Below, piece after piece: positions 4,265 through 33,611 of a stretch of 64,000 nucleotides of DNA. The notes beneath the pieces were generated by a model that did no database searches, had not been told where the DNA came from, and saw only the letters and a list, made by a program, of their open reading frames with translations. Location: contig NW_026853344.1 of NCBI RefSeq assembly GCF_026571515.1, forward strand, positions 1-64,000, in the 5' to 3' direction. The position numbers were made by a program, and so were the translations under genes. Numbering within the stretch: position 1 is the stretch's first letter; each line of letters starts with the position of its first letter. Origin of the DNA: Ruditapes philippinarum. Lineage: Eukaryota.

Positions 4265-5520
4265 TTACCCAGTGAAATATCCTTTAACTGAAGGTAATTC
4301 TTTATCAAGTTTTATCAGCAATTCCTTTGCTTTTTCAACTGCATCAGTGCTAGAATTTGCTAAAACTACATTATCTAAGCCAGCAGTCCATGTGGTGTGA
4401 TAGTTAGATATTTTACGCTGTTTGTTATCAATATATACGTGGGGGATATTGAGAAGTGTTGATAGAATATGACCGTGAAGACGATCAGTGATTACTACTC
4501 GACCTCTCTGTAAAAACATCATTCCATTGGTTGTCTTAAGAAACGAGTCTTCCATTGGCGAGTCCCCACGATGGGTTTTCCATATTAACCAATCAGAAAC
4601 GTGCATACGATAACCTTCCGGAGCTGCCGGTGTATTGTAGTGTGGAGACTCTTTATCGGTGCGCTTTAACCAAAGTATATCGAACGTTGGATGCATGAAG
4701 CGAGGAACGAAACCAATCTGGTAGGCAATATCTGGTGATAATAGGGAACGTACGTTAGGGAAGAGCTTCTTGCCAAGCTCGAAAGATACCTTATCTCGCC
4801 ATAGAAACGTAAGCTTCGGATGAGATGCATATATTTTCTGGCAGAACTTAATGTGAGAATCTGGTCCCATTGTCAAAATACTTTGTGGAAACATGACAAT
4901 GTTGAACGGCATGAATCGTTTTATTTGTTTACTACGAGAAAAATCTGACGAAGGCCAACCAATGACATTTCCGCCACCATGAAAAAGAATGACAAGATCT
5001 TTACTTGTATAATTTTTACTGATGTTATGAGCTCTGTATATTTGATTGTCTGTGCAAAATACTTTACATGCAAACACAATTTCGATTTTGAGTTTCCTCA
5101 AAAGCAATGTTTCTCCAACAGTAATCGCCGAGTCACCTTTGTTTTCCGAGGTAGAATAATCGAATAGCATTGCATATTTATACCCGCCCAACAGGGACTT
5201 GAAAATATTCATGTGAATTCTCTGAGCTTCGTCAATTACATCTGACCGTTTTGTATGTAATGGAGAAAGTTTATTAGTTTCTTCTGGATTGTGTACTAGA
5301 TCTAATGATAGGAAGTCTATGATGTTGAATGTCGCTTGCTTTGACAGAGATAAATTATTCCACAACAATTTATAGCTATCATTGTTTACATCAGTATATT
5401 TCATTTTATGTTTTGGTAGCCCTAACATCATCTTCGGTATCTCGAAGACTTGATATACTGCCAGAATAGCCAAAGTGAAAGTAACCGAAGTAAAGAAATG
5501 TCTCCTGTACCCCATCACAG
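4265..5520 (-). CDS. Polysaccharide pyruvyltransferase exon, copy 1 (Pvg1-like, N-terminal signal-anchor)
   Basis: Open 417-aa ORF with family motifs NKGD, GGGN, PQS, RD..S, PDIA and TDRLHGHI, and a hydrophobic N-terminal segment. Acceptor TATTTCAG| lies immediately upstream (AG at 5522-5521). Confidence 0.9.
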
Positions 5521-5898
5521 CTGAAATATAAAAACAAAGTTCAGTTTGATTCTAGATGATACTTTTTATATACAGGTACTTTCGTTTTTCTGAGACTTTT
5601 TCGAATAAATTGATACAACAATTGAACAACAACAACAACCATAATTGATGTAAGAATATTTTACTTAGACTATATAAAATGAACTAGTCATTTTCTACAT
5701 TTGATAATGAAAATATTATATATAATGTGTAACATCTCAAATAATGAAGTATATGTCATGGTTCACAACAAAATAGTTTACGCCTTAATATATTAATATA
5801 TATATTTATATATATAAAGGACTAAAGAAAGAAGGAATAACAAACCCATTAAGAACTATCATTAGTATCATAATGGTGTTACAGATTCTTCAACTCAC

Positions 5899-6814: not shown

Positions 6815-8909
6815 TTGGCTAAAACCTCCCAAGCTATGAAAAGAAGAATACAAAATCAAGGTTAGATTAAATGGTAACAGTTAATGTAAGTATAACTTGA
6901 AGTAAATATTTTCATATTTATTTCAAGATATAGTGTAAGTAAAAATATAATTTATATGTGTAAAATGCATAGTGCATACCTCTTTTCAAATTGTTACTTT
7001 TGTCGCATTTTTAGATTTATAAGTTAGTATAATATTTGGCAGAATTGACTTAGATATTTGAATATGCAATTTCAAGATCATCTGATTAGAATAAAAGGAA
7101 ATAAAAAGTAAACACCAAACACTTACTATAATCTTGTATGGCGAAATAGACGAACTATATTGCAATTTTATATCATGGTTCAATTAAACTACATTTATAA
7201 TTTTCGTTCGCTTGTTTTGTTTTAATCGCAATTCAACATATATTCGGTTATATATGCTTTATAAAATTCGCTTAGGCCTATATTATATTTCTTGTTATCA
7301 AGTTTTCTGATATTTGTGGAGATACACTATTATCATACACATTTTGTCTTTGATATCCATGGTTTAACGTTTGATCTTAACTATTTATGCGGTTGAAACA
7401 AGATTGTATCAACATAATTAAGATAATTGTGATCCAAAGTCAAAAATATCTTAATTATATTAATACATAAAAGAACAAATTCTGTTAACTTTTAATCGTT
7501 GTAAAAGAAAAACCTATCTGAATTCGAATCACATCAGGTGATACCGGTATTTTAAAAATATCTTAAATAATTGTAAATTATATGCATTTTAATTGTTTAT
7601 TCTGATTCAAATTAGAAACAGCGTTCCTTATAGAACTTGCAAATTCGCCACTTATTTTCGTCTTATGAAAAGCGGCGTATGGTCACCAAATAAAGAAATG
7701 TTAGATTTTGTTTTTAGTTTCATAAAATACTAATATAATAGCAGTGATTGAGCCAGAAATAATAGTTAAGAAGTTCTGCTCATTCGAACAAATCTCCCCG
7801 AAGGAAATGGTTCTTCCGGTGAGAACTTAAAAGTTAACATATAAATTAAATATTGCATGATATAAATGCGCCTTCGATCAGTACTTTAAGGACATTGTTT
7901 TTTTCTATTGGATAGCTTTTATTACGGTATTTATGGAATAAAATCTATCTAGAGCGCTCTGTTGATTTAATGCAATGAAGTATGACTTAATCAAACCGAA
8001 TCCGCAATTTTCATTTAATTTTGTTGTGATTAATGCTTCCGATGGATCACTTAGTGTCCAAAATTATAAAAATACTTGCCTACTTATTTCTTGAAATACA
8101 TTGTATACTCAGTAAAAATATTTTACGCTGTTTTTAAGATCTAACGGGATAGAATTTAAGGTATACAGGAATTCCTCTCTGAAGAATTTTCATTTGGAGT
8201 GAGTATACAAAGTTTGCATGAGGTGTTGGAAAAAGCCCTACTGGAAGTTAAATTTTTGTTCACTTTTACTTTTCCTGTCTGGTCATATTATTTTTTTTCT
8301 TTAGAAAAATCAAGGTTGAAGATGAATTTTTATGTATTTTTTAGCATAAAATGAGTGAAATATGGTAGTTTTACAACTCAAAATGTCATCTCCAAATCTC
8401 CAATCAATCTCCAAATCTGGATGATACCTCCTCCTCAAATGTTTAAAATTGTATCTCGATAAAAATTATACGAAGCTATAAGGTTATCCCATTGACAGAT
8501 GTCAAAAGGACCGATTTCCTCCACGCACCCTCTTTCCTTTTTTAATTAAATTTGATATAGTGTTAAGATATAAAGTTAAAAAAACTTTTGAACAGAAACC
8601 TTGTCAAACATTATCATTTTCATCAGCGTTTTTCATTGCAAAGCGATGCGTCAGATTTTGCTGGTAAGTAAAAACAATGTAACAATAAATTTTGATACCA
8701 TACCTGTCTTTATGGATACAAATAAAATCTCTACACAACTTGCAACACATAAGTTTTAAGGATAAATGGCCTCATGTGTGATAGAACAAACTATTATGTA
8801 ACAAAGTAATATGTAAATGATAGAAACTTTAACGGCTGTCAACAGCTTTCAATCTAGTTATCAAAAGTAGTTAAGTATACGAGGTTTCTGGATCAATAAC
8901 AAGAAAGTT

Positions 8910-10783: not shown

Positions 10784-11846
10784 TTATCCCCCGCCGATGG
10801 AATCGGGAGGGGGATATAGTTTTGGCGTTGTCCGTCCGTCCTTCCGTCCGTCCGTCCGAATTTCGTTTCCGGAGTAGTTCTCTGCAACTACTGGCTGGAA
10901 TTCAACGAAACTTTATGGGAATCATCAATATCAAGAGGAGATGCGCATCTGACCGTCCGTTCGTCCGTCCGTCCATCCGTCCGTCCGTCCGAATTTCGTT
11001 TCCGGAGTAGTTCTCTGCAACTACTGGCTGGAATTCAACGAAACTTTATGGGAATCATCAATATCAAGAGGAGATGCGCATATCGTCGGCTTGTTCCGGT
11101 CAGACACTTTAACTCAGAGTTATTGCCCTTGATTAGTTATGTAGTATGCATATAGAGTAAAAATCGTTTCCGCGCTACTTCTCTGCAACTACTGGCTGGA
11201 ATTCAACGAAACTTTATGGGAATCATCAATACCAAGAGGAGATGCGCATATCATCGGCTTGTTCCGGTCAGACACTTTAACTCAGAGTTATGGCCCTTGA
11301 TTAGTTATGCAATATGCATATGGAGTAAAAATCATTTCCGGAGTAGTTCTCTGCAACTACTGGCTGGAATTCAACGAAACTTTATGGGAACCTTCAATAC
11401 CAAGAGGAGATGCGCATATCATCGGCTTGTTCCGGTCAGACACTTTAACTCAGAGTTATGGCCCTTGATTAGTTATGCAGTATCCATATAGAAAAATATT
11501 TGTTTCCTCGCTACTTCTCTGCTACCAACGGCTGGAATTCAATGAAACTTTATGGGATAGTAAGAGGAGATGTGCATATAGTCGCCTTGTTCCAGTCAGA
11601 TACTTATAACTCAGATTTATGGCCTTTGATTAGTTATGTAGTATGCATACATCTCATTGGCATTTCCAGATTTTGCTATTTAACACAAAGTTATGGCTCT
11701 GTTATTTCCCTGAATATTTATCAAGTTCAAAGAATATTACTGTTTATGCCATGATTAATATATAAATAAAGCCTTATGTCTTCAGTTGTTGTGTTAATAA
11801 TAACCAGTACTCGGCGGGGGATATAAATTCAACGAATTTGCTTGTT
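10784..11846 (+). mobile_element. Second copy of the HINE/pearl-like element, with fewer 168-bp units and a duplicated head
   Basis: Near-identical to 347-1940. It sits at a TT within ATCTCCATATTTA..TTAATCTTATG, which is empty in sister units (~30265-30290, ~35770-35790). Confidence 0.85.
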
Positions 11847-13556: not shown

Positions 13557-13884
13557 GTGAGTGAAAGGAGTTATAATATATCATTATAAAGCTGTTCACA
13601 TTTCTAATTCTAAACCTGCTGATTTTGTGTTATGACTTAGCTTAGCTTTATTTTAGAATAGTCCATTGAAAGTTTTAGATACTTCAGTATCAAAATACAA
13701 TATTAAATTACAAAAAGCAAAGAGCCAGGTCAGATTTAACTGATATAATACATATATTTGTAGTTGGTTGCCATAGGTTAATTTATCCCTAACATATGCT
13801 ATGTCATTTAGAAAGACATAAGATAAAGTCTCAGAAAAAGATGGTTTTTTCAAGAATAAAACCAAATTTTATTTTATGTTTCAG

Positions 13885-15143
13885 CTGTGATGAGCTACAA
13901 AAGACATTTCTTCTTTGCCTTGATTCCTATCATTGTAATTATTCTGGCAATGAATCAGTTCTTCGAAGGGCATACAATGACGTTAGGGTTATTGAAATGT
14001 AGAACGAAAGTTGATAATGGAAATAATGATAGCTATAAATTGTTGTGGAATAATTTATCTCTGTCAAAGCAAGCGACATTCAACATCAAAGACTTCCTAA
14101 CATTAGATCTAGCACACAATCCAGAAGAAACTAATAAACTTTCTATATTGCTTACAAAACGGTCAGATGTAATTGACGAAGCTCAGAGAATTCACATGAA
14201 TATTTTCAAGTCCCTGTTGGGCGGGTATAAATATGCAATGTTATTCGATTATTCTCCCTCAGAAAACAAAGGTGACTCGGCGATTAGTGTTGGAGAAATA
14301 TTGCTTTTGAGGAAACTCAAAATCGAAATTGTGTTTGCATGTAGAAATTTTGCTGCTGCGGATTATCAGTTTGAAAGAGCTTACAACATCAGTAAAACAT
14401 ATACAAGTAAAGATCTTGTCATTCTTTTTCATGGTGGCGGAAATGTCATTGGTTGGCATGAGGCAGACGTTGCTCGAGGTAAACACATAGCAAGATTTAT
14501 GCAGTTCAATATTGTCATGTTTCTACAAAGTATTTTGATGATGGGAGGTGATTTCCTCATAGAATTTTGCCAGAAAATATATGCATCTCATCCGAGACTT
14601 ACGTTTCTATGGCGAGATAAGGTATCTTTCCGGCTTGGCAAGAAGCTCTTCCCTAAGGTACGTTCGTTATTTTCACCAGATATTGCCTACCAGATCGGTT
14701 TCGTTCCTCGCTTCATGCATCCAACGTTCGATATACTTTGGATAAAACGCACCGATAAAGAGTCTCCACACTACAATACACCTCTAGCACCAGAAGGATA
14801 TCGTATGCATGTTTGTGATTGGTTAATGTGGAAAACCCCGCGTGGGGACTCGCCAATGGAAAACATTTTTTTTATGACAACCAATGGAATGATGTTTTTA
14901 CAGAGAGGTCGAGTAGTTATCACTGATCGTCTTCACAGTCATATTCTATCAACACTTCTCAATATCCCCCACGTATATATTGATAACAAACAACGTAAAA
15001 TATCTAACTATCACACCACATGGACTGCTGGCTTAGATAATGTAGTTTTAGCAAATTCTACTATTGACGCAGTTGAAAAAGCAAAGGAATTGCTGATAAA
15101 ACTTGATAAAGAATTACCTTCAGTTAAAGGATATTTCATATAG
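13885..15143 (+). CDS. Polysaccharide pyruvyltransferase exon, copy 2
   Basis: Open 418-aa ORF with acceptor TTTCAG| at 13884 and ATG at 13890. It carries PQS>LQS and DRLHG>DRLHS relative to all other copies. Confidence 0.85.
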
Positions 15144-18079: not shown

Positions 18080-18547
18080 ATGATGCTGTTTGTTTTCATT
18101 GGCTGGACACTAACATCGTTTGCATGTCATTTCTGTGCAAAACTATTTATAAAGGAATCGACATCATTCATTTCTGGAAATGGAAATAACATAATTGTTT
18201 TAACTGTTCTACAAGTGTTCTTCTACATGCAAGTGGCATCGTTTACGGATAACAATGATAAAGGGATTATGGTTAACAAACTTGTCATTTTCACTGCTCA
18301 CGCATGCGCGACTTTAGCTACAAACTGGAGCATGGCTGTAACATATGTTGCTTCAACATTTGCAATTAAACTCATGGAACCTGTCACCAGTGCTTTATTA
18401 CAAAAATTTATTCTTAATAATGAATTGTCATATCTACAGTACATCAGTATTCCAGCTGTTGTTTGTGGTTCAATATTATTTGCTCAAGAAAATAACACGT
18501 GGGAGTTAAATGTATCCAAAGGAACAGTTCTTGCGTTTATTTCTAAT
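18080..18547 (+). pseudogene. TPT/PEP-translocator exon, copy 3, 5' part (interrupted by retrotransposon)
   Basis: 156 clean codons ending ...AFISN. The exon continues in frame at 25658 once the element is removed. Confidence 0.88.
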
Positions 18548-19191
18548 TTATGTTTGCACCTGGCAAGACTCAGCAGTTTATTTATGTCAAGATAAAATAG
18601 AACAAATACCAAATTGGATGAAAATGTCCAGGCCCAGAGGGCACTGGACTGTTTATTTAAAAAACAAGAAAGAAAGGCATATAAAGCTTATATAAGTAAA
18701 AAACATGACATAAAGTTGGACAGCAATTCGTCCTGTACATATAAAAGTAACATGTAGTAAAACAAACAATATTAAAACTAGGCAAGGAGTTGTGGTGGGG
18801 TGGTGGCGGTAGAGTGAAACAATTTTCAGATAACAATTTTGCGTGCGACACCTAGTGGTGAAAAATTTTCTATGATCCGAAAGATAGAATTACACCGAAA
18901 AGTGTTTAAACACCAGAAATGCCTTAAATGTGCTAAGATGTAAAATAAGATGAAACTGTACAAACATAAATCACTTTATACTGTTCCACTATATAAAGTA
19001 TAATTTTATGTTTGCACCTGGCAAGACTCAGCAGTTTATTTATGTCAAGATAAAATAGAACAAATACCAAATTGGATGAAAATGTCCAGGCCCAGAGGGC
19101 ACTGGACTGTTTATTTAAAAAACAAGAAAGAAAGGCATATAAAGCTTATATAAGTAAAAAACATGACATAAAGTTGGACAGCAATTCGTCC
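18548..19191 (-). repeat. 3' split direct repeats B1-A2-(spacer)-B2 of the Ngaro-type element
   Basis: 18548-18733 equals 19006-19191 (TTATGTTTGCACC...GCAATTCGTCC). 18810-19005 equals 25462-25657. Confidence 0.93.
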
Positions 19192-19950
19192 ACCACTGGT
19201 CCAACCAAAGAGACTTGACAGGCGCAAATTTAGACGACAAAGAAATTTAAATTGTATAGATGCCTACCACTTTCCCAAACCACCAAAAAAAAACAAATAT
19301 ATGTTACAGCAAGTTCTAGAGAAAGTTATAACAAATCTACATGAGTATGATCAAGCAAATCATAGTAGAGAACACTAATGTGGAACAATTTGGAATTCCT
19401 ATCAGGTTACATATATGTAGTCATAAAGTGTAACTAATATATATATATATATATGTATAAGTAACATGAGAAAGAAAAATATTTACAGTTATAACAAAGC
19501 TATTTACAACAAAATGGGTATTAACAACTGTATTATTTTTAAGGGTAAAACTTGTCACATGAGCAAGTGCTTGAAAGTAAAAACTTACAATATAGAAGTT
19601 AACAGGGGTAGACCCTGCCACTAGCAGGTCTATTATTAAAACACTTTCGACTAGATAAATTATTATGAGGCTTATTAAAGCGATGTTAGACAAAAATATG
19701 TGATTTTATTTACTGGAATAATAGTGAGACAAATTGTCAGACTAGAATTATGTTGACTAGTTATGATAGTAAAAATTTACAATACATAAATATAAAAAGC
19801 AATAAAATAAATACAAAAGTACAGATCTTCGGCTCAATAAGGAGCAATTGAAGAAGCATTGCAATGGATTTCATTTTGACTAGCAATATTTTGAGTATGT
19901 ATATAGTTGTAAATAATTAGAAAATGTTACAAAAACCAGCATCAAGATAA

Positions 19951-20399
19951 TTGTGTCACACCCCAATGACACAATAAGCAAATACATATTAACAAAACAA
20001 TTGTCACTTATTTGTGTTTGCCCAATGACACAAAATGCACATACGGAGTAAAACCAAGTCCCTTTAATTGAATCACACTAATGACACACAAAGGCGTATG
20101 TACATGAATAAAAGCAACGTTATTTGTTTGTATCACACCCCGATGACACAAAAAGAGTAATTACACAATACTAGAATAAGATTAATATGATCGTGTCACA
20201 CCCCAATGACACACAAAGTCATATATATATACATGAACAGAAACTGTCATTTTATTTTGCATCACACCCCGATGACACAAAAAAGTAATTGCACAATATT
20301 AGAATAAGAATAATATGGTTGTGTCACACCCCAATGACACAAAGGAAGCAAATAGACATAAATGAAACACCCATGTTTGTGTCACACCCCAATGACACA
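19951..20399 (-). repeat. Array of 8 regularly spaced ~23-bp palindromic repeats (plus-strand TTGTGTCACACCCCAATGACACA) with variable AT-rich spacers, in the element's 3' UTR
   Basis: Copies start at 19951, 20012 (degenerate), 20068 (degenerate), 20128, 20191, 20257, 20319 and 20377, with period 56-66 nt. Each has a TGTGTCA/TGACACA stem. Confidence 0.85.
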
Positions 20400-20443
20400 G
20401 AAAGGCATTTAAATATGGGTAAGGCAGCAGATAGGATTTTTGA

Positions 20444-21394
20444 TCAAGAAACAGGATTTCTTACATTAGCTAGTCTGATGTATCTTTTAAAGGCATTTGA
20501 TTTCCATCTGCCCATTTGCATAATGGTTTGTTCGGGGATTCCTGACAAAATAGCTTGTGTACATGCCCCTATCCTAAAGCTGTGGAGATGATAATACTGA
20601 CGGCTGAGGTGACATAAGTCAAGTAGTTGATCAAAAACACCTTTGAATTTTGAAATAGTGATAGGAGTATTTAATGATGAAATAAAGAGGGGGCCATCAC
20701 GAGCACCCCTGATGGTCAGATACCTGTGAAGTGATTTAATTGGACAAAGAACTTTGGTTCTTTGTAAAGTGACATCAATTGGCTTGACCTCTTTTTTAGT
20801 CTTGTAATTATGTAACTTCAAAGATACATGGGACTTAGTCAGATGAACATGATTGAATTGAATGACTTTGTTACACTTCCTTAAATTTCTTGGAAGAAGT
20901 TCACCCATTCTAAAGAACCCATTGTAAGTGACCAGTATTATAGCTTTGTACAGATATCTATCATACATATTGTCTTTAAAGATATGGTCACAGGCCACTA
21001 TGAGTTTCTTTATGTGGACTTTTAACAGAGGCAAACGTTGATCAAAAGAGGGGGTTAGTTTTTTACACCCCAGGATCATTCTTTTAACAATTACATCATC
21101 ACAAGGGTCAGGGAACCTAGCCACTTGGTGGAAATAAGTTATTGCTGATAAGTGACTGCTAATTGAAGATGGCTTATAGTTCTTTAAATGTAAATAAGCC
21201 ACAAAGTCAGAAATGACAGTGGCAGAAAAAGGCACGTCATGGTACGAATTATTTGATGTTAGGAACTCAACAAATTTTGCCCAAAACCTGTCATATGCTT
21301 GTCTGGTAGTTCTTGCTAGGGACGCCGCTACCAAATTGCCTTTTATTTCAGCAATAGCCATGGAGTCATTGACAGTGGAATGGCTGCTGGGCAT
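20444..21394 (-). CDS. Tyrosine recombinase (YR) of the Ngaro-type retrotransposon
   Basis: 316 aa with catalytic motifs GFFRMGEL, HSFRIGA and GRWKSNAFKRY. Overlaps the RNase H C-terminus in another frame. Confidence 0.93.
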   Translation of the reverse strand: MPSSHSTVNDSMAIAEIKGNLVAASLARTTRQAYDRFWAKFVEFLTSNNSYHDVPFSATVISDFVAYLHLKNYKPSSISSHLSAITYFHQVARFPDPCDDVIVKRMILGCKKLTPSFDQRLPLLKVHIKKLIVACDHIFKDNMYDRYLYKAIILVTYNGFFRMGELLPRNLRKCNKVIQFNHVHLTKSHVSLKLHNYKTKKEVKPIDVTLQRTKVLCPIKSLHRYLTIRGARDGPLFISSLNTPITISKFKGVFDQLLDLCHLSRQYYHLHSFRIGACTQAILSGIPEQTIMQMGRWKSNAFKRYIRLANVRNPVS

Positions 21395-23206
21395 TTGTTT
21401 AGATGAGGAGCGAGTTGAAGGGCTTCTTTGACCTGTAATCGAGATAATTTATCACAGATTATATTAGTAGATGAACTAATATGTTTTGATTTAAAACAGA
21501 AGTTGTATTTGAGGGCCTTTAAAACTATAAATCTGATCAGTTTCATCATTATTTTGTCTTTAGAAGTTTGCTTGTTTAAACAGTAGACTACAGACAAGTT
21601 GTCACTTATAAACAAGACATTCGTTCCTGACCATAAATGACCAAACATTACAACTGCTAATGCTATTGGATAGAGCTCTAAGATATTGATATGGAGCTGT
21701 TGGATTTGAAGTGGAAAACAGCCAAATGTCCATTCATTTGAGTAAACAATTCCGAAGCCTTTAGAACCGGCTGAATCTGTGAATAGATTCATAGTTTGAT
21801 TTGATATAAATCTGTCCCCGGTAAGAAGAGTGCAACCATTGTAATCATGAATGAATTCATGCCACAATTGAATATCAGCCCTGCAATCATTATTCAATTT
21901 GATGTAGTGATGTTTACTATTTATGCCCATAGTTTTATCATATAGACGTCGTAAGAAACAACGACCCGGTTTAATGACTCTACAAGCAAAGTTTAAATGA
22001 CCTAATAATGATTGCAATTCCCTTAGAGTGACTTTCTTTTGTTTCCTGTACATGTTAAGTAAGGATCTTAGGGCTTGAACTTTGTTCTGAGGAAGTTTGG
22101 CGATCATTGACTTGGTATCAATCATAATACCATGTACTTCTACACAGGTCGAAGGTAATGACGTTTTAGCATGTTTGATTGGTAAATTCAAGTCTTTTGC
22201 CAGTGACATGAATTTATTCAATGAGTTTAAACATTCCCCAGTATCAGCAGAACCCACAAAAATGAAATCGTCTATAATGTGTGATACTTTTTGTACTTCA
22301 CATTTTGTTTTCAAAATCCACTGTAAAGAACATGAAAATTTTTCAAATATAGCTACCGAGGAAGAAGCTCCCATAGGTAGTGCTGTATCAAAATAAAATT
22401 TATTGTCAAATGAAAACCCCAATTTCCTGAAATCTAAAGGAGACATAGGGATAACTCTGTATGCATCTTCAATATCAGCCTTAGCAATTTCACAATTGTA
22501 ACCCGAAGATAGGACTAATTTAGCTACATCATCAAATAGTTCTAAACAAACCTCTAAATAATCTTGGAATAAATGAGTTAACTGAGGATCCCCATGAGGG
22601 GTAAGATAGATCATGTATGAGTCGAAAGGAGTTAGGGTCTTTCTTAGGGACGACACCTAAAGGGGAGCAAACTAAGTCATGGAATGGTTTAGTCTTGAAA
22701 GGCCCTTTAATTTTTTGCTTCAAAATCTCAGAGGATAGCTTTGTGCGAACAAAATCAAGGTGAGTGCTAACAGAGCGGTGGTTGTTGGCTGACAATGCCG
22801 GGACATAACCGACAGTACCTAAACTAAAGCCGTAAGTAAAACCATCAATTACCGATTGTTTGAGATAATAACCATCAAGATATTGTTGTAGGGAGGATAC
22901 ATTTATAGGGGTTGATACCTTAAAGCCCTTATTACTTGGCTGTGTTGTCACCTGTTTTGATGGGTTGTTTGAATTTCTTAAAATCAAGGTGGCAGGAGAT
23001 GGCTGCATGCTGTCCTTCACAGTTTGCACATTTGTGACTGACAGAACAGGACTTTTTTGAGCAAGAGGATCTTTTTTGAAATTCCCAACAATAACCTTTT
23101 CTTTGAAAGATGTGGGGCGGGAGGTATTTCCGAAAGGAATGGTTGTTGTTTTGGACTTTGTGATTGGCTGGCTTGTCAATTGAGCAAAAAAGGAATGTTT
23201 CAGCAT
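21343..23206 (-). CDS. Reverse transcriptase-RNase H (pol), split by one frameshift near 22565
   Basis: ORF 22532-23206 has SPLGVVPKK and FRLIHDLSYP. ORF 21343-22656 has KADIEDAYR, LPMG, HIIDDF, LFTDSAGS, INILELYPI and SDN. The frames switch at SVNSFIP/QDY. Confidence 0.88.
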
Positions 23207-23897
23207 GGATTATCCCCCATGGTTGAGGGTTGGTTGCCCTTAGCTGCCTAAACTTAGTGTCGTACAGCAACCAGTTATCAGTAGATTGGGCCATTTTTTG
23301 AATAATAGACATATATTGGAAGAGTTGGCTACTCTCCAAAGGGTACTTGCAACAATACACATCGGCGTATTGTTGAAAGGCTCTAGACCAAGTTAGTATA
23401 GTGCTTATTTGTTTCTTGGACCCCTCCTGAATAGAGGTGACCGTTCTATTTCCAGATTCCTGGATAGTGGTGGTTTTTGATATGTTTTTTTCTCTAAAAT
23501 AAAGAACCCCCAGATCTACAAATTCCCGATTCCATATCTGCTGCCTTAGTTTTGAGTCTATAGGCGGATGGACTAGACTAAAAGATCCTAGATCCACCGA
23601 GTTGTTACTTAAATCAAGGGGAACAGGTCCAGAATCTATGGTGCTTAAACTAACACCATCCTCACTAGTGTCCATTTGGTCATGGTTAGTGGACATGGAT
23701 TGGACATCCTGGTCTGGTTCAATTTCATAATTGGCCGTACCGTCATCTTTATCCGTGGTAGGCAGTAAATCCACAATTTCCTTGAGCACTTCCTCATCTT
23801 TGCTGATGGCAGTGGCGATGAGTTGTGCCAACTTGCTGCTACCATTTTTCTTCTGCTTCTTGCCAGATTTGGCTTTGTTTGGTGCGACTTTGGGCAT
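22932..23897 (-). CDS. Gag-like ORF of the Ngaro-type retrotransposon
   Basis: 321 aa with WLLYDTKFRQ and the C-terminal Cys/His finger CWEF..C....C...HKCANCEGQH....C. Overlaps the start of pol. Confidence 0.85.
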   Translation of the reverse strand: MPKVAPNKAKSGKKQKKNGSSKLAQLIATAISKDEEVLKEIVDLLPTTDKDDGTANYEIEPDQDVQSMSTNHDQMDTSEDGVSLSTIDSGPVPLDLSNNSVDLGSFSLVHPPIDSKLRQQIWNREFVDLGVLYFREKNISKTTTIQESGNRTVTSIQEGSKKQISTILTWSRAFQQYADVYCCKYPLESSQLFQYMSIIQKMAQSTDNWLLYDTKFRQLRATNPQPWGIIHAETFLFCSIDKPANHKVQNNNHSFRKYLPPHIFQRKGYCWEFQKRSSCSKKSCSVSHKCANCEGQHAAISCHLDFKKFKQPIKTGDNTAK

Positions 23898-24660
23898 TCT
23901 GAAATGTAATGTCTTACAAGAATTAATTATAGGTGGGAATATGCTGGGATACTCCCACTTTGATATGGTATAAGAATAGTCTACATGTACAATAAGTGAA
24001 TATAACCAACTGGAACCAATTGTTAAACCAGTGGTAAAAGTGTACTTGTAGAAAAGTATCCAACCAGTGTTACCCGGAAAAATTCACACGCAGGTGATAA
24101 AATTAAATAAATAATGTAAATAGTATGGTATAATTGTGCATCCCCAAACAAACACACGCACGTGTAAATATCTGACTAGCAGAATGTATAAACGGGGAGC
24201 AAACCATGTTCAAATGGTCAACCATACAACGAATATCCTGGGTATCAACTGGTGGATGTGTCGGTATAAAAAATTAACAATGCCAACTCAGGGCACTAAA
24301 TGTTGTTAACAGGGACCTTATTAGGATAATGGTCCAAAACTAAACAGAATAGATGAGAATTGTATGGCAACACAATTCATAAATAATGCAACAATGAAAG
24401 GCAAATTGAATTATCACTTACTTATCTATGGCAAATCTTTTAATGTTAGTTATACCAAATCAAATCTTTGCATGAAATAAATGTCCCACACAACTATCAC
24501 TCATTCACTGTTTTGTCAAATTGAGTGTATGTAATCTGAAACACAATGTATGAAAAGAACATGTAAAAGAAATACATATACAAATATATATAAATATATA
24601 CACATGTGAAGACAGGAAACTTATTGTGATAAACATTTTTCAGCCAATAAAATGGAGCCT

Positions 24661-25218
24661 CTAACTGAAGCATAGTAACGAGGCATAGTAACGAGGCATG
24701 CCCTTTTGGTTGTCAACATGGACCCCATCATTTGCAACATAATCCCTAATAAAACGACGGTTGAAGTTGTTCCGTTTGTGAGTCCAAAATATTAGGGAAG
24801 GCTTGTCTTCACAATATGATTTCAATAACTGATTTGTTGTGTCAGCCTTGGCATTATATACATGGTCACCAGCTCTATGTAAAATTTCATAGATGACAAC
24901 AACTTGACTACCACGACTAAATATATTTGAACATAAACTGATAATGCTATCCACCAACTGATTTGGCTGCAAATTTGGAATGCATAAATCATTACTTCCA
25001 ATATCTACAACTGTGCAGTTTATCTCCAATTCATCTACCAAATAAACATCGCACCAAATTGATTTCGCTTTAGACTTTGACGCGACATAAGCTCCGCCCA
25101 CTCCATGCCAATAAACTTGCACGCGGTCCGAATCTAAATTCAAATTCAACAAACATTTCGTACCACACCATCTCTGGAGGCGCTTTGTAAAAGAGTGGCC
25201 CAGTAACAAAACATTCAT
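24661..25218 (-). CDS. SGNH/GDSL hydrolase ORF at the 5' end of the element, C-terminus frameshifted by a 13-bp duplication
   Basis: Blocks LLLGHSF, GVGG, DIGSNDL and DGVH, with ATG at 25218. GCATAGTAACGAG is tandemly duplicated at ~24670-24695. Confidence 0.82.
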   Translation of the reverse strand: MNVLLLGHSFTKRLQRWCGTKCLLNLNLDSDRVQVYWHGVGGAYVASKSKAKSIWCDVYLVDELEINCTVVDIGSNDLCIPNLQPNQLVDSIISLCSNIFSRGSQVVVIYEILHRAGDHVYNAKADTTNQLLKSYCEDKPSLIFWTHKRNNFNRRFIRDYVANDGVHVDNQKGMPRYYASLLCFS

Positions 25219-25461
25219 AACTATTCTCAAACAAAGAGATTAATGAAAAGGAACGATACAAATTATGTAACAAACCCACGCTATCCACGCTGTCCTAAGT
25301 AGGTCACTCACGCTCGTCGTTGATGCTGTGACAGTGTCGCCGAGAAAACTAACTGCTTTTTAACCAGAAGCTATTTGCGACTACGTGGTAGATTAAATAA
25401 GCTTCCCCAAATAAATAATTATTGAGAATAACTGTTGACGAGCAATAAATAAAATATAAAA

Positions 25462-25657
25462 TAGAGTGAAACAATTTTCAGATAACAATTTTGCGTGCGA
25501 CACCTAGTGGTGAAAAATTTTCTATGATCCGAAAGATAGAATTACACCGAAAAGTGTTTAAACACCAGAAATGCCTTAAATGTGCTAAGATGTAAAATAA
25601 GATGAAACTGTACAAACATAAATCACTTTATACTGTTCCACTATATAAAGTATAATT
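25462..25657 (-). repeat. 5' terminal repeat A1 of the Ngaro-type element
   Basis: 196-bp match to 18810-19005. Confidence 0.93.
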
Positions 25658-26093
25658 ATATGTTTATCCCTGAGAAACGTGTACATGAAAAAGAATCACA
25701 TATCACATTCTAATTTCATAGTTAACAAAACCCATATTGGATTAGGACTATATGTTGTTTTTGCCATAGGAGCATTGGTTCTTGTGAACATCGAAATAGC
25801 ACCCCCAGGATCCCCAAAATTGTACTTTCTTCTCTTAGGATCTTCTTTATTTCATGCTATTTATAGCTACATATCTACGATAGTTGTACTTCACCATTTT
25901 TCCGTTGTTGGTCATGCATTTGGAAACATTTTGAAAAGACTTGCTGTTCTTGGTTTATTATACGTAACAGGCTCAAAAACATCGTCCATCGTAAATTTCA
26001 TTGGACTTTTCATATGTGCAACAGGGCTGACAATTTATGCGTTTTCTAAAGTACAAGAATTGAATCAGAATCAAATCAACAAAAAGTTTCAAA
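25658..26093 (+). pseudogene. TPT/PEP-translocator exon, copy 3, 3' part
   Basis: Resumes ICLSLRNV...GNILKR... with no stops. Donor A|GTGAGT at 26094 (intron 26094-26446). Confidence 0.88.
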
Positions 26094-26446
26094 GTGAGTG
26101 AAATGAGTTATAATATACCATTATAAAGCTGTTTACACTTCTAATTCTAAACCTGCTGATTTTGTGTTATTTGCTTAGCTTTAACATTAGAATTAACCAT
26201 TCAAAGTTTAAGATATTTCAGTATCAAAATACAAATATTAAATAACAAACAGCATAGAGCCAGGTCAGATTTAATCGGTATACTACATGTATTTGTATTT
26301 GGTTGCCCTAGGTATATTTATCCCTAATATATGCTATGTCCTTTAGAAAGGCATTTGATTAAGTCCCAGATAAAGATGAATTTTCTATGTGAATATAATT
26401 ATGTAGAATCATCTAGAATTGAACCAAATTTTGTTTTTTGTTTCAG

Positions 26447-27702
26447 CTGTGATGAGCTTCAAAAGACATTTATTCTTTACCTTGGTTACTATCATTGCAT
26501 TTTTTCTGGCAGTAAATCAGTTTTTCGAGGGAAATACGATGACGTTAGAGTTATTGAAATGTAGAACGAACTATGTTGATGTAAATAATGATAACTTTAA
26601 ATCGTTGTGGAATAACTTATCTCTGTCAAAGCAAGCGACATTCAACATCAAAGACTTCCTAACATTAGATCTAGCACACAATCCAGAAGAAACTAATAAA
26701 CTTTCTATATTGCTTACAAAACGGTCAGATGTAATTGACGAAGCTCAGAGAATTCACATGAATATTTTCAAGTCCCTGTTGGGCGGGTATAAATATGCAA
26801 TGCTATTCGATTATTCTCACTCGGAAAACAAAGGTGACTCGGCGATTACTGTTGGAGAAACATTGCTTTTGAGGAAACTCAAAATCGAAATTGTGTTTGT
26901 ATGTAAAATTCATTGCATAGATTATCAACTAGACAGAGCCCATAACATCAGTAAAAAATATACAAGTAAAGATCTTGTCATTCTTTTTCATGGTGGCGGA
27001 AATATCATTGGTTGGCCTTTGTCAGACGTTTCTCGTGGTAAACAAATAAAACGATTCATGCAGTTCAACATTGTCATGTTTCCACAAAGTATTTTGATAA
27101 TGGGACCAGATTCTCACATAAAGTTCTGCCAAAAATTATATGAATCTCATCAGAGGCTTACGTTTCTATGGCGAGATAAGGTATCCTTCGATCTTGGCAA
27201 GAAGCTCTTCCCTAAGGTACGTTCGTTATTATCACCAGATATTGCCTACCAGATTGGTTTCGTTCCTCGCTTCATGTATCCAACGTTCGATATACTTTGG
27301 ATAAAACGCGCCGATAAAGAGTCTCCACACTACAATACACCGGCAGCTCCGGAAGGTTATCGTATGCATGTTTCTGATTGGTTGATGTGGAAAACCCCGC
27401 GTGGGGACTCGCCAATGGAAGACTCGTTTCTTATGACAACCAATGGATTGGTGTTTTTACAGAGAGGTCGAGTAGTTATCACTGATCGTCTTCACGGTCA
27501 TATTTTATCAACACTTCTCAATATCCCCCACGTATATATTGATAACAAACAACGTAAAATATCTAACTATCACACCACATGGACGGCTGGTTTAGATAAT
27601 GTAGTTTTAGCAAATTCTAGTATTGACGCAGTTGAAAAAGCAAAGGAATTGCTGCTTAAACTTGATAAAGAATTACCTTTAGTTAAAGGATATTTCATAT
27701 AG
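26447..27702 (+). CDS. Polysaccharide pyruvyltransferase exon, copy 3
   Basis: Open ORF with all motifs intact. Acceptor TTTCAG| at 26446 and ATG at 26452. Confidence 0.9.
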
Positions 27703-28790: not shown

Positions 28791-31107
28791 ATCGTACACA
28801 AAAAGTGGATTTTTATATTTTTCTGTAAAGGATGGCCTTGACCTTGGGATAGCGACCTGATTATTTGCGCTCTGTACATCGTTCAATAATGATGATTAAA
28901 AGTGTATAGGTAATTTTTAATTTTTTTCTTCGAAATGGAGATGCAATGTTTTATTTTTATATATATTTGGCCATTAATAGTGTACTTGGCTATGTGGGTA
29001 GCAACCTAATTGCCGGGCTCTTCACGTTGTCTCGTAATGGTGATCATTGGACAGTTATATTGTTATGGACCGGACACACGGACATATTGATAGGCGGGAC
29101 AATTCCTATAGTCACCTCCCCACTACGCGGCAGGGGATTAATACACAATTGAAAATGCGAATAATTCTGATTACTGCATGTCAAATGCATGTCATACTCC
29201 ATCTAGCCTTAATTCCAATTTTAAGGTAAAATGTATATAAATTCCTTGTCCAATATAATTTACTTTCGAACTAAACAGTTAATAATAACCTTATTTTAAT
29301 GGACGAATACGCTGCTGTTTTACCTAAACTGGACGAGGCGCCTATGAAATCATTTAGAGCTGTGTACAAGACCAAAAACATCAATATTGTATTGTATGTA
29401 AATAATTTTTTTCACACCACTAATGTTTTGACATTATTTTGTTTTTTTAAGGATAATTAGGATTTGATATGGACTATTTAGACTCTAAGAATAAAAAAAA
29501 CTAGGCTAAAGTGAGTGTAACTTGGATTTGATAATTTTGGGTTTGTGAAAATAAACAACAAAGCTCAAATATGTACTGCAAACGCTAAAGTTCATTGGTT
29601 GCACATTATTAATTGTAACACCTGAACATGTAAAAATGTTTTCAATTTGAAAGTCGACCATGTTGTATGTAACTAGTATGCAACAATATTCGCAGACAAT
29701 TCTACCTGAGTTTATTTCGTTTTGCGATTTCAAAAACAGATTTTATTTGTTTATCTTATAAGATACATGTAACTTAAACAACACATATAATTTGACATCC
29801 ATATGTTGCCATTTGTTTTATAGATTATGACTGATGTTCTTTCCTCAACATTTTATTGTTTTTGTTTTTTTTGTTGTCAATGTTATACACTCAGAATGCC
29901 TGGATTTTAAATTCTTATATCATCATTATAGTGTCTCTCTATATGGTAATTTTTCTATTTGAATATTTCTTAATATCTTCATGAGCACATCTGCGGATAT
30001 TACCAAATTCTTAATGTCATGATTTTCACACTGATATGTTGAACAGACTCAATCAAGTCGAGACTGCAACTTTTTCAAAAGGATGTTTTCAAAGTTTCTA
30101 TTTTATCTTTAAACTCATTTCAAAATTAAAGGGTATAAAGCTATATCTTATGAAATATTTTTGTATAAAATCCATCAACAGTAAAATAATGTACACGAAG
30201 TTTCATAATTGTCCTGAACGATATTCTCTTATTTCGTTTGTTAATTTGTTTTTTGTTTTGTTTATCTCCATATTTAGTTAATCTTATGTATGCTTAGGGC
30301 GGAGTTTAAAAGTTGTTAGCGGGCATTTTTGAATATGAGCATTTTATAAGAGGAGCATTCAATGGCGGAGTATGTTTGTGACATTTTTCTCATGCAACGG
30401 AATATACTCATGCCTCATGGATTCCATGATATTCAAATGGACTAACGAAGAGTATAAAAGCTAACATATATTCTCATGTATTTATTCGTTTCCTTTCTTT
30501 CGGCCAATGTATGCTAATGTCAAAATTCTAAAATTATAGTTACAAAATGTGGTTAGTTATTACTTGGATATAATTTGATATTTTGAATACAAACTGTAAA
30601 AAATATATATTAATATTTTTTTTTCAATGTGGCTAAAAGTTTTATGTTTATTTTCTAAACTCAGAAATAAAGAGATGTCAGCAACAATATTTCTATTATT
30701 AATTCTTGAAACAATAATAACATTACCTAACATAGAATGTCTCTGTTATTTAACACACATGGATATTGCAGGGTAACGGAAGAAAATGAATTTTACCATT
30801 TAGCGATCATTCTGTGCATGCGTCATTTGCTCTTCAGGACATAAACATGCATATATCTTTCAAACCGATATTTAACAATTATTCATTTTCAAATCCAACC
30901 AATAATTTGTAGCGGAACGGAAACTTTGTATGCTTTAAGTGAAGTTTTGAACAACATCATTTCACATTGTAACACGTTTATAAATCAATATAGGCGTCAC
31001 ATTATTTCACTTAGATAAAAAGCACATATAAGAAAAGTACGATTTTGTTTTAAGCATGTTCAACCAACTATAACTATATTCTAAACTTAAAAATAACCTT
31101 TTTCCAA

Positions 31108-32011
31108 ATGATGTTGTTTGTTTTCATTGGCTGGACAATAACATCGTTTGCATGTCACTTCTGTGCCAAACTATTTATAAAGGAATCGACATCATTCACT
31201 CCTGGAAATGGAAATAACATAATTGTTTTAACTGTTCTACAAGTGTTCTTCTACATGCAAGTAGCATCGTTTACGGATGACAATGATAAAGGGGTTATGG
31301 TTAACAAACTTGTCATTTTCACTGCTCACGCATGCGCGACTTTGGCGACAAACTGGAGTATGGCTGTAACATATGTAGCTTCTACATTTGCTGTTAAACT
31401 AATGGAACCTGTAACCAGTGCTTTATTACAAAAACTTATTCTAAAAATCGAATTATCATATCTACAGTACATCAGTATTCCAGCTGTTGTTTGTGGTTCA
31501 ATATTATTTGCACAAGAAAATAACACATGGAAGTTAAATGTTTCCAAAGGAACAGTTCTTGCGTTTATTTCTAATATATGTTTATCCCTCAGAAACGTGT
31601 ACATGAAAAAGAATCACATATCACATTCTAAGTTCATAATTAACAAAACCCATATTGGATTAGGACTATTTGTTGTTTTTGCCATAGGAGCATTGGTTCT
31701 TTTTGATATCGGGATAGCACCCACAGGAACCGCAAAATTATACTTTCTTCTCATAGGATCTTCTTTATTTCATGCTATTTATAGCTACATATCTACGGTA
31801 GTTGTACTTCACCATTTTTCCGTTATTGGTCATGCATTTGGAAACATTTTGAAAAGGCTTGCTGTTCTTGGTTTATTATACGTAACAGGCTCAAAAACAT
31901 CGTCAATCGTAAATTTCATTGGACTTTTCACATGTGCAACAGGGCTGGCAATTTATGCGTTTTCTAAAGTACAAGAGTTGAATCAGCACCAAATTAACAA
32001 AGAGTTTCAAA
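31108..32011 (+). CDS. Transporter exon, copy 4 (intact): triose-phosphate/PEP translocator family (SLC35E-like, DMT fold)
   Basis: Multi-pass hydrophobic ORF with VKLMEP, SLRNV, FHAIY and HAFGNILKR, matching the K..EP and GN..KR motifs of phosphate translocators. Confidence 0.88.
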
Positions 32012-33611
32012 GTGAGTGAAAGGATATCATTATAAAGCTGTTCACATTTTTAATTCTAAACCTGCTGATTTTGTGTTATTTGCTTAGCTTTAATATTAGA
32101 ATTAACCATTCAAAGTTTAAGATATTTCAGTATCAAAATACAATATTAAATTACAAACAGCAAAGAGCCAGGTCAGATTTAACTGATATAATACATATAT
32201 TGGTAGTTGGTTGCCATAGGTATATTTATCCCTAATATATGCTATGTCCTTTAGAAAGACATTTGATATAGTCTCAGAAAAAGATGATTCTTTTGTATGT
32301 GAATATATTTAGACTCATCTAGAATAAAACCAAACTTTATTTTATGTTTCAGCTGTGATGAGCTATAAAAGACATTTATTCTTTAGCTTGGTTACAATTA
32401 TTGTATTTTTTCTGGCACTGAATCAGTTCTTCAGGGGACATACGATGATGTTAGAGTTATTGAAATGTAGAACGAAATATGTTGATGGAAATAATGATAG
32501 CTATAAATTGTTGTGGAATAATTTATCTCTGTCAAAGCAAGCGACATTCAACATCAAAGACTTCCTAACATTAGATCTAGCACACAATCCAGAAGAAAGT
32601 AATAAACTTTCTATATTGCTTACAAAACGGTCAGATGTAATTGACGAAGCTCAGAGAATTCACATGAATATTTTCAAGTCCCTGTTGGGCGGGTATAAAT
32701 ATGCAATGCTATTCGATTATTCTCACTCGGAAAACAAAGGTGACTCGGCAATTACTGTTGGAGAAACATTGCTTTTGAGGAAACTCAAAATCGAAATTGT
32801 GTTTGTATGTAAAATTCATTGCATAGATTATCAACTAGACAGAGCCCATAACATCAGTAAAAATTATACAAGTAAAGATCTTGTCATTCTTCTTCATGGT
32901 GGCGGAAATGTCATTGGTTGGCCTTTGTCAGACGTTTCTCGTGGTAAACAAATAAAACGATTCATGCAGTTCAACATTCTCATGTTTCCACAAAGTATTT
33001 TGATAATGGGACCAGATTCTCACGTAAAGTTCTGCAAAAAAATATATGCATCTCATCCGAGACTTACCTTTCTATGGCGAGATAAGGTGTCTTTCGATCT
33101 TGGCAAGAAGCTCTTCCCTAACGTACGGGCGATATTATCACCAGATATTGCCTACCAGATCGGTTTCGTTCCTCGTTTCATGCAACCAACGTTCGATATA
33201 CTTTGGATAAAGCGCACCGATAAAGAGTCTCCACACTACAATACACCTGCCGCACCGAAAGGATATCGTATTCACGTTTCTGATTGGTTAATGTGGAAAA
33301 CCCCGCGCGGGGACTCGCCAATGGAGGACTCGTTTCTTATGACAACCAATGGAATGATGTTTTTACAGAGAGGTCGAGTAGTTATAACTGATCGTCTTCA
33401 CGGTCATATTCTATCAACACTTCTCAATATCCCCCACGTATATATTGATAACAAACAACGTAAAATATCTAACTATCACACCACATGGACGACTGGCTTA
33501 GATAATGTAGTTTTAGCAAATTCTAGCATTGACGCAGTTGAAAAAGCAAAGGAATTGCTGATAAAACTTGATAAAGAATTACCTTCAGTTAAAGGATATT
33601 TCATAAAGTAA
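31108..33611 (+). CDS. Intact two-exon gene join(31108..32011,32353..33611): TPT/PEP-translocator-family transporter fused to polysaccharide pyruvyltransferase, 720 aa
   Basis: Donor CAAA|GTGAGT at 32012 and acceptor TTTATGTTTCAG|CT at 32352. A+CT gives Thr and keeps the frame into GTG ATG AGC. 904+1259=2163 nt, or 721 codons including the stop. Both sites are conserved in all five copies. Confidence 0.82.
32353..33611 (+). CDS. Polysaccharide pyruvyltransferase exon, copy 4
   Basis: Open ORF with NKGD, GGGN, PQS, RD, PDIA and TDRLHGHI motifs and an N-terminal TM segment. Confidence 0.9.

What the first reader, a model, noticed from the sequence alone, without database searches (positions are those of the whole stretch)
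19951..20399. CRISPR-like array of hairpin repeats directly behind the tyrosine recombinase in a Ngaro retrotransposon
Seen: eight ~23-nt repeats at 56-66-nt spacing begin 44 nt after the YR stop, separated by ~35-43-nt spacers that diverge far more than the repeats. On the element's sense (minus) strand each reads UGUGUCA-UUGGGGUG-UGACACA, a 7-bp stem with a G-rich loop. Stem substitutions in the well-preserved copies (3' arms UGAUACA at 20128, UGACACG at 20191, UGAUGCA at 20257) all give G-U wobble pairs on the minus strand but A-C mismatches on plus. That points to selection on RNA structure in the element transcript. Inference: these could be multivalent Gag-binding or packaging signals, processing sites releasing small RNAs, or YR-binding palindromes. 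Spacers 4/6 and 3/5 resemble each other, so the array probably grew by duplication rather than spacer acquisition. I know of no description of such arrays in DIRS/Ngaro elements.
Basis: partly seen in the sequence, partly recalled or inferred. Interest (0 to 1): 0.78.

Follow-up and report, generated by a model that had tools for sequence, protein, structure and literature searches.

The report
Conserved RNA hairpin arrays in retrotransposons
Eight short hairpin repeats lie in the non-coding tail of a tyrosine-recombinase jumping gene; related elements keep the same loops while swapping the paired stems, so the repeats are likely a multi-site RNA signal, most likely bound by the element's own Gag protein to pick out its RNA for copying, and they are not a CRISPR-like system.

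Summary
The array is real: eight 19-22-nt repeats (six intact hairpins) start 44 nt after the YR stop of an Ngaro retrotransposon and occur in six near-full copies. It is not CRISPR-like: spacers are element DNA, partly duplicated, unchanged between copies, without phage matches. It is under structural selection. In this genome 17 of 23 families of one Ngaro clade, against 3 of 30 of the other, carry three or more same-register hairpins behind YR. Loops are lineage-specific; lower stems change but stay paired (89% versus 58% in controls). Other organisms show similar arrays (15 of 27 metagenomic families). RNA contigs place the array in the shared 3' UTR of spliced isoforms, and one spliced RNA was retrotransposed. 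A protein-free Ngaro family shares with coding relatives only terminal-repeat patches and this loop. Best reading (0.5): multivalent RNA docking sites for Gag's CCCH-CCHC fingers that recruit the RNA for reverse transcription; binding is untested. Conserved loop with free arms argues against YR sites on double-stranded DNA. The scan noted similar arrays in sea-urchin and fungal Ngaro elements before; ten paper searches found no description.

The parts
20378..20399 (-). Hairpin 1 (7-8 bp stem, cap A-UUGGGGUG-U), 44 nt after the YR stop
20320..20341 (-). Hairpin 2, perfect copy
20258..20279 (-). Hairpin 3, two G-U pairs on the sense strand
20192..20213 (-). Hairpin 4
20129..20150 (-). Hairpin 5, one G-U pair; duplicate of hairpin 3
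20070..20088 (-). Repeat 6, degenerate (shortened loop)
20014..20032 (-). Repeat 7, degenerate (3' arm lost)
19952..19973 (-). Hairpin 8, perfect copy
20444..21448 (-). Tyrosine recombinase ORF (334 codons stop to stop)
   Evidence: Pfam PF00589 E 3.5e-9 and PF02899
21343..23209 (-). RT/RNase H region; in this copy broken into two frames near 22.55 kb; no methyltransferase domain found
   Evidence: RVT_1 E 6e-11
22932..23897 (-). Gag-like ORF with C-terminal CCCH plus CCHC zinc fingers; its ATG follows a splice acceptor
24661..25218 (-). SGNH-hydrolase-like ORF upstream of gag, inside intron 1
   Evidence: Pfam Lipase_GDSL_2 E 0.005, below cut-off; motif alignment
24536..25275 (-). Intron 1 (GT-AG), removes the SGNH ORF
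   Evidence: RNA contig joints in X17, X13
23899..24421 (-). Intron 2 (GT-AG), ends just before the gag ATG
   Evidence: joints in 4 of 4 runs
21433..23740 (-). Intron 3 (GT-AG); its removal puts the first 52 Gag codons in frame with YR
   Evidence: joints in 3 of 4 runs; phase counted from the ATG at 23897; precisely missing in genomic copy L005/C10000
25462..25657 (-). Split direct repeat A1 (5' end)
   Evidence: 98-100% identical to A2; end placed against the empty paralogous site
19006..19191 (-). Split direct repeat B1
   Evidence: 100% identical to B2
19171..19209 (-). Conserved palindrome at the start of B, shared by related families and the non-coding family; likely the recombination/replication site (inferred)
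18810..19005 (-). Split direct repeat A2
18548..18733 (-). Split direct repeat B2 (3' end)
18080..18547 (+). 5' half of a TPT-family transporter gene split by the insertion (3' half about 25658-26101)

Best explanation
The array is a set of structurally conserved hairpins in the shared 3' UTR of the Ngaro element's transcripts, and it likely works as a multivalent cis-signal that the element's own Gag protein would bind through its CCCH-CCHC zinc fingers to recruit the RNA into the particle where it is reverse-transcribed. Shown: the hairpins, their covariation, their lineage-specific caps, their place on all splice isoforms, their retention by a protein-free family. Inferred: that they act as RNA of the sense strand; that each cap (a G-rich loop, in most lineages above a 3-bp stem and a 1-2-nt 5' bulge) is a protein site and the lower stem only presents it; that copy number (2-12 per element, spacing from about 30 to several hundred nt) adds avidity; that the ligand is element-encoded and is Gag. 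The signal would mark element RNA against host RNA, not unspliced against spliced RNA.
For: (1) Covariation: in 131 distinct capped hairpins from 22 own families and 9 metagenome loci, lower-stem positions 1-5 are 89.5% paired against 58% (max 63%) for cross-family and 78% (max 81%) for same-family swaps; in the window's class 7 of 9 pairs change on both sides, score 0.78 vs 0.22 shuffled and at most 0.26 slid. The 3' UTRs of these families are otherwise unalignable. (2) Unbiased scan: three or more same-register hairpins in 17 of 23 clade I and 3 of 30 clade II families, 0 of 53 in shuffles; 15 of 27 metagenomic families, 0 of 27 shuffles. (3) Caps differ between lineages inside one host genome yet recur in other organisms along the RT tree, which points to an element-encoded ligand. 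(4) Zinc-finger subtype follows cap class, and at matched RT divergence finger identity is 0.39-0.62 for same-cap pairs, 0.13-0.16 for different-cap pairs, 0.19-0.44 for clade II pairs. (5) A non-coding family with 98-99% identical split repeats, no Gag/RT/YR/SGNH hit and no ORF of 100 aa keeps 3-6 hairpins with the window's cap on new stems, at 4 insertions with different flanks; BLAST finds only short patches of repeat B shared with coding relatives. (6) A spliced RNA that kept the array was retrotransposed. (7) Retroviral zinc knuckles bind G-rich loops such as GGAG and GGUG (PMC3247676, passages).
Against: No binding was measured. The zinc-finger trend is not significant on independent pairs (finger/RT identity 0.76, n=9, vs 0.57, n=12; p=0.11) and is confounded with ancestry. 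Clade II has the same two fingers but mostly no array, so Gag can work without one. The array lies on all isoforms, unlike retroviral psi. Array-less copies with both termini exist (C11784, C6685/C11326, C15016, C12494); the two junctions searched did not spread (C15016 single; C6685/C11326 share a 3' flank), but they do not prove a requirement. The non-coding family may have kept the array passively with its 3' end; hairpin columns are only weakly more conserved than flanks there (3 of 80 vs about 10%, p=0.08). Cap patterns were drawn by eye from these sequences, so loop conservation is partly circular. Sense-strand preference is p=0.06 against background. The Gag model matched no solved capsid.
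Confidence: 0.5

Rival explanations
1. The hairpins are template-recognition or priming sites for the element's RT (like hepadnavirus epsilon or the 3' stem-loops of L2/CR1 LINEs; both recalled).
For: Bulged-hairpin shape; lineage-specific caps fit any element-encoded ligand; retention by a non-coding family; the primer of YR elements is unknown and DIRS-1 RT acts in trans (PMC7192593, passages).
Against: Priming needs one site at a fixed place; copy number is 2-12 and the first cap lies 9-370 nt after the stop; the array is more than 700 nt upstream of repeat B, which must itself be copied.
Confidence: 0.15
2. The hairpins bind a host protein and control export, localisation, stability or translation of element RNA (like IRE arrays, constitutive transport elements or dynein localisation signals; recalled).
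For: Present on all isoforms of an intron-containing element that must export unspliced RNA; 3' UTR position; multi-copy arrays are typical of host regulatory sites.
Against: At least six different caps coexist in one host and follow element ancestry; the 10-nt cap is not enriched in the host genome (1194 vs 1733 for the reversed control); no Rfam match; kept by a family with nothing to translate.
Confidence: 0.18
3. The hairpins act on single-stranded cDNA, as YR substrates like integron attC sites (recalled), or as double-stranded YR binding palindromes.
For: DIRS-1 cDNA intermediates are single-stranded (PMC7192593); bulged bases recall attC; Watson-Crick stems fold on both strands (12 of 23 families score on the antisense strand).
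Against: Loop conserved and arms free, the reverse of a recombinase site; stems of 4-10 bp are short; G-U over A-C favours the sense strand; element ends lie at the B/A junction, which resembles the empty target site, and a separate palindrome sits at the start of B in both clades.
Confidence: 0.06
4. A CRISPR-like array whose repeats are cut to release about 60-nt guide RNAs.
For: Palindromic repeats at 56-66 nt spacing in this family.
Against: Spacers unchanged among six copies, two pairs are duplicates, no match in 50,697 phage records or repeat match in viral contigs; other families have irregular spacing; RNA contigs run through the array; no cas-like ORF in the element.
Confidence: 0.03
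5. A neutral decaying minisatellite.
For: Grew by duplication; within-family conservation of repeats over spacers is not significant (p=0.27); family F17 has a plain tandem expansion.
Against: The cap survives between families with 43-48% YR identity and unalignable UTRs, with compensatory stems, and in other organisms.
Confidence: 0.03

Closest known systems
Ngaro-like tyrosine-recombinase retrotransposons (order DIRS)
   Same: A1-ORFs-B1-A2-B2 split direct repeats, gag / RT-RH / YR overlapping, no methyltransferase, extra SGNH ORF (definitions from PMC3783388, PMC4157794, PMC9210276; passages).
   Different: Published SGNH ORF lies after YR (PMC9210276), as in clade II here; in the window's clade it lies before gag inside an intron and the place after YR holds the hairpin array. 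No hairpin array, splicing pattern or non-autonomous family appears in the passages read.
Retroviral psi stem-loops bound by nucleocapsid zinc knuckles (HIV-1 SL2 GGUG, SL3 GGAG; PMC3247676, passages)
   Same: Several short hairpins with G-rich loops, some bulged; Gag with zinc fingers; clustering of sites proposed to promote Gag-Gag contacts.
   Different: Psi lies in the 5' UTR and excludes spliced RNA; this array is 3', made of repeated copies of one cap, and is on all isoforms. Gag here has CCCH plus CCHC and no capsid match was found. Binding untested.
Tandem-repeat arrays between pol and 3' LTR of plant Retand/Tat/Ogre elements (PMC11963269, passages; PMC7004042, search listing)
   Same: Family-specific repeat arrays in the 3' non-coding region of a retrotransposon.
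   Different: Those are head-to-tail tandem repeats; the words hairpin, stem and secondary structure do not occur in PMC11963269. Here only a cap is conserved and stems covary.
CRISPR arrays
   Same: Palindromic repeats with similar-length spacers in this one family.
   Different: No spacer acquisition, no foreign spacers, no cas genes, irregular spacing in relatives.
MS2/PP7 operators, TAR, hepadnavirus epsilon, IRE (all recalled)
   Same: Lower stem, 5' bulge, short upper stem, conserved loop: the shape of a protein-binding hairpin (cap classes B, C, E).
   Different: No sequence relation tested; no Rfam family reached its threshold over 18500-20500.

Membership tests
Ngaro-like YR retrotransposon | Split direct repeats A1 ... 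B1-A2-B2 with internal repeats downstream of YR | tested here: met
Ngaro-like YR retrotransposon | gag, RT/RH and YR ORFs on one strand, overlapping | tested here: met
   pol frame is broken in this copy
Ngaro-like YR retrotransposon | No methyltransferase domain | tested here: met
   Pfam gives only RVT_1 for pol; YR overlaps its end
Ngaro-like YR retrotransposon | RT groups with reference Ngaro sequences | not tested
   No named reference Ngaro was in the trees
CRISPR array | Conserved palindromic repeats with spacers of similar length | tested here: met
   this family only; relatives are irregular
CRISPR array | Unique spacers of foreign origin | tested here: not met
   two spacer pairs are duplicates; no phage match; only family copies match in the own genome
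CRISPR array | Polar spacer gain or turnover between copies | tested here: not met
   same seven spacers in six copies
CRISPR array | Adjacent cas genes | tested here: not met
   14 ORFs of the element and its neighbourhood scanned against Pfam gave none
CRISPR array | Processing into unit-length RNAs | not testable with these tools
   only assembled contigs were served
Retroviral-type packaging signal | Conserved RNA stem-loops with G-rich loops | tested here: met
Retroviral-type packaging signal | Bound by Gag zinc fingers | not testable with these tools
   indirect only: (p=0.11)
Retroviral-type packaging signal | Confined to unspliced genomic RNA | tested here: not met
   downstream of all three introns; a spliced RNA was retrotransposed
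Retroviral-type packaging signal | Required in cis for mobilisation | tested here: inconclusive
   kept by a non-coding family at 4 insertions; array-less single copies also exist
YR recombination site on double-stranded DNA | Sequence-conserved inverted arms around a variable core | tested here: not met
   core conserved, arms free
Known Rfam RNA family | Match at gathering score | tested here: not met
   best E 0.19, far below cut-offs

The most novel reading that the evidence does not exclude
One widespread clade of Ngaro retrotransposons uses arrays of a repeated RNA hairpin as an identity code: each lineage has its own cap and a co-evolved Gag CCCH-CCHC reader, giving many mutually orthogonal protein-RNA pairs within one genome, which non-coding parasites copy to hitch-hike. 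This would be the first RNA-selection signal known for tyrosine-recombinase retrotransposons and a natural source of MS2/PP7-like pairs.
Probability: 0.35. Interest if true: 0.82.

Novelty: new variant of a known kind. Interest (0 to 1): 0.67.

Why it matters
How tyrosine-recombinase retrotransposons choose and prime their RNA is unknown; even for DIRS-1 the primer is not known (PMC7192593). A 20-nt hairpin with natural compensatory variants, at least six lineage-specific caps and a candidate 45-residue reader turns this into a direct binding experiment with built-in specificity controls. The work also shows an Ngaro clade with the SGNH ORF moved in front of gag, a three-intron expression plan yielding a Gag-YR fusion, a retrotransposed spliced RNA and a non-coding Ngaro family; none appeared in the paper passages read.

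Tried and rejected
Rfam scan of 18500-20500: nothing near threshold. Whole-region folding z-scores: weak on both strands. Phage BLAST of the array and viral-contig scan for the repeat: no match; viral-contig search for related YR: none. Gag profile against PDB sequences: best E 0.53. Gag AlphaFold model (mean pLDDT 64, pTM 0.41): Foldseek no match at E 0.001, VIA-align best Z 5.1; this neither shows nor excludes a capsid fold. Maximum-likelihood tree did not finish; FastTree trees were used, without named references. The 78 exact matches of the non-coding family's hairpin are not 78 retrotranspositions: 11 of 20 fetched loci are passengers inside a DNA element with about 640-bp inverted repeats. 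The shared array-less deletion at C6685 and C11326 first looked like mobility without the array, but the 3' flanks are homologous, so it is probably one insertion. A cap cluster at C610 is a 30-nt tandem repeat without pairing. Transcription-factor sites on DNA (KLF, T-box, TALE; recalled) were considered and dropped, since they do not explain paired stems. Expression of a class-B family and of the non-coding family was not obtained, so it is open. Poulter and Butler 2015 and Goodwin and Poulter 2004 are not held; Repbase entries could not be seen; no supplements were read; any of these may mention the repeats. No complex prediction was run, since RNA cannot be the partner.

Full report
OBSERVATION. 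Eight repeats start on the minus strand at 20399 down to 19973, 56-66 nt apart, with 36-44-nt AT-rich spacers, the first 44 nt after the YR stop. Six match the 22-nt motif with 0-3 mismatches and no shuffle of the window gives a match; two are degenerate. Each intact repeat folds as an 8-10-bp hairpin; the two copies with stem changes fold well only on the sense strand, but they come from one duplication (spacers 88% and 68% alike). The exact motif occurs 20 times in the 1.4-Gb genome, on 9 contigs that all hold copies of this family, and the reversed control 0 times. Six near-full copies carry the same eight repeats and seven spacers.

THE ELEMENT. It spans about 18548-25657 on the minus strand with A1 ... 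B1-A2-B2 split repeats, gag with CCCH plus CCHC fingers, RT/RH (frame broken in this copy), YR, no methyltransferase, and an SGNH-like ORF in front of gag. It interrupts a TPT-family gene at a site resembling its B/A junction. This fits the Ngaro definition read in PMC3783388, PMC4157794 and PMC9210276 (passages). The host is probably a mollusc (run labels; inference).

RNA. Contigs of four runs from three studies (two on record as RNA, two guessed) cover YR and the array continuously, start at 25491 inside A1 (3 of 4 runs) and stop at 18810 at the end of A2 (2 of 4, one more at 18815); flanking host DNA has almost no cover and intron 2 little. Three GT-AG joints appear: one removes the SGNH ORF (2 of 4 runs), one ends at the gag ATG (4 of 4), one joins gag codon 52 to YR (3 of 4; phase). 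All isoforms therefore share the array. The genomic copy on C10000 lacks exactly the third intron and keeps both termini and the array, so a spliced RNA was reverse-transcribed and integrated; that copy could also be the source of the RNA joint. Contigs show no strand, level or small RNAs.

RELATIVES IN THE GENOME. A YR search scored 128 of 864 candidates; I analysed 121 and left out five fragments and two of the weakest. They form 53 families at 80% identity (F31 is probably F05) in two clades (FastTree). Clade II (30 families) has the SGNH ORF after YR in 29; clade I (23, with the window) never does, and has it before gag in at least 14 (upstream sequence reached only 5.5 kb). A scan that knows no motif found three or more same-register hairpins within 1.5 kb of YR in 17 of 23 clade I and 3 of 30 clade II families (best member each), and in 0 of 53 shuffled sets. 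Read by eye, clade I arrays have lineage-specific caps: A-UUGGGGUG-U (F01-F04); bulged A, 3 bp, 7-nt loop ending AGG (12 families); 2-nt bulge, CAG/CUG, 7-nt loop (F05, F20); and three smaller classes. With patterns for the caps alone, 143 hairpins were collected, 131 distinct. Their lower stems are 89.5% paired at positions 1-5, against 58% when arms are swapped between families and 78% between copies of one family; 53 different fully paired 4-bp stems occur. For the window's class, 24 hairpins give 71 cells with two-sided change against 24 shuffled and at most 22 slid. The UTRs are otherwise unalignable. These counts are not tree-corrected, and the caps were defined from the same data. G-U outnumbers A-C 32 to 10 inside stems (p=0.001 against 1:1; p=0.06 against distal background; 25 to 10 per family, p=0.23 against background), so the sense strand is favoured but not proven.

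OTHER ORGANISMS. A metagenome scan kept 80 of 216 loci; 57 reach YR, 43 have 300 nt or more downstream (one rearranged locus left out), in 27 families, of which 15 have three or more same-register hairpins and 0 in shuffles. The closest relative of the window's group has a longer version of the same cap, and a relative of the bulged-A group has that cap with further upper-stem variants. Hosts were not identified. The scan's earlier notes report arrays in sea-urchin and fungal Ngaro tails (unchecked; the fungal one was judged not hairpin-based).

A NON-CODING FAMILY. The 10-nt cap is not enriched genome-wide, but one cluster led to a 7.3-kb element with 98-99% identical split repeats, the clade's B palindrome and 3-6 hairpins bearing the window's cap on new stems, with no Gag, RT, YR or SGNH hit and no ORF of 100 aa in two full copies. 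Four insertions have different flanks and keep hairpins (C1136, C10218, C10627, C8840; the last ends at a single B). With coding relatives it shares only short patches of B. Against this: 11 of 20 loci first fetched are passengers of a DNA element; three of six further loci have both termini but no array or no interior; and hairpins are only weakly more conserved than flanks against a sister family (p=0.08). The two array-less junctions searched have not spread (40 candidates scored each).

WHICH LIGAND. Six or more caps coexist in one host and follow element ancestry, which points to an element-encoded reader. Finger subtype follows cap class. At equal RT divergence fingers are more alike in same-cap pairs and less alike in different-cap pairs than in clade II pairs, while the Gag core shows this only at the deepest level. 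On independent pairs the finger effect is a trend only (p=0.11) and YR, Gag core and hydrolase show none. Retroviral knuckles bind G-rich loops (PMC3247676, passages). I therefore favour Gag (0.5) over a host factor (0.18), RT (0.15), YR on single-stranded cDNA (0.06), guide-RNA processing (0.03) and neutrality (0.03). No step from hairpin to protein is shown.

KNOWN VERSUS NEW. Ten full-text searches and passages of PMC3783388, PMC11963269, PMC6681497, PMC7192593, PMC4157794, PMC3247676 and PMC9210276 gave no description of hairpin arrays in Ngaro or DIRS elements. The two founding reviews are not held, and Repbase and supplements were not seen. The element is a member of a known superfamily; the array works like a packaging signal but fails one defining feature of retroviral psi (it is on spliced RNA too); it fails the CRISPR tests. 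Verdict: real, selected, clade-wide, undescribed as far as searched; new variant of a known kind; interest 0.67.

Noticed in passing
window 21433-23740, 23899-24421, 24536-25275; L005 (G000:C10000): Three GT-AG introns; the third fuses 52 Gag codons to YR in frame, and one genomic copy lacks exactly that intron while keeping both termini and the other two introns.
   Followed up: yes
L355/L301 (C1136), L353 (C10218), L356 (C10627), L351 (C8840): Non-coding Ngaro family of about 7.3 kb with 98-99% identical split repeats and the window's hairpin cap; its autonomous partner was not found.
   Followed up: yes
L342 (C1055), L350 (C5318): Related non-autonomous element that carries an SGNH ORF (HMM E 4.5e-35) and hairpins but no gag, RT or YR.
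   Followed up: partly
L336, L338, L340, L344, L347, L349, L352 and others: A DNA element with about 640-bp terminal inverted repeats captured the array and B end of the non-coding family and spread it.
   Followed up: partly
L070-L189, families F01-F53: At least 53 Ngaro families in this genome form two clades: SGNH ORF after YR in 29 of 30 clade II families and 0 of 23 clade I; before gag in at least 14 of 23 clade I.
   Followed up: yes
L138 (F37), L081 (F08), L153/L098 (F18): Three clade II families carry unrelated repeated hairpins, between YR and the hydrolase or inside repeat B.
   Followed up: no
L138, L161, L119, L136, L139, 3' of YR: A conserved short motif pair between YR and the hydrolase in families F28, F35, F37, F38, F43; may be another structured RNA.
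   Followed up: no
window 4265-5551, 13860-15143, 18080-26101, 26407-27702, 31054-33611, 36962-39138: Tandem cluster of apparently intronless polysaccharide pyruvyl-transferase (PF04230) and TPT transporter gene pairs, unusual for an animal; the Ngaro element splits one TPT copy.
   Followed up: no
L362 (C634) 7077-8050: Six class-B hairpins at about 190-nt period with no YR, RT, Gag or SGNH hit in 9.9 kb; perhaps a non-coding derivative of family F19.
   Followed up: partly
L011 (C12992), L008 (C4376): Two truncation points of family copies fall in repeat 7 and at the foot of hairpin 4; too few to say whether RT pauses there.
   Followed up: no
window 426-1750, 10996-11649, 44805-45748, 50342-50848: Ordinary satellite arrays (168, 53, 132-145 nt periods).
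   Followed up: no
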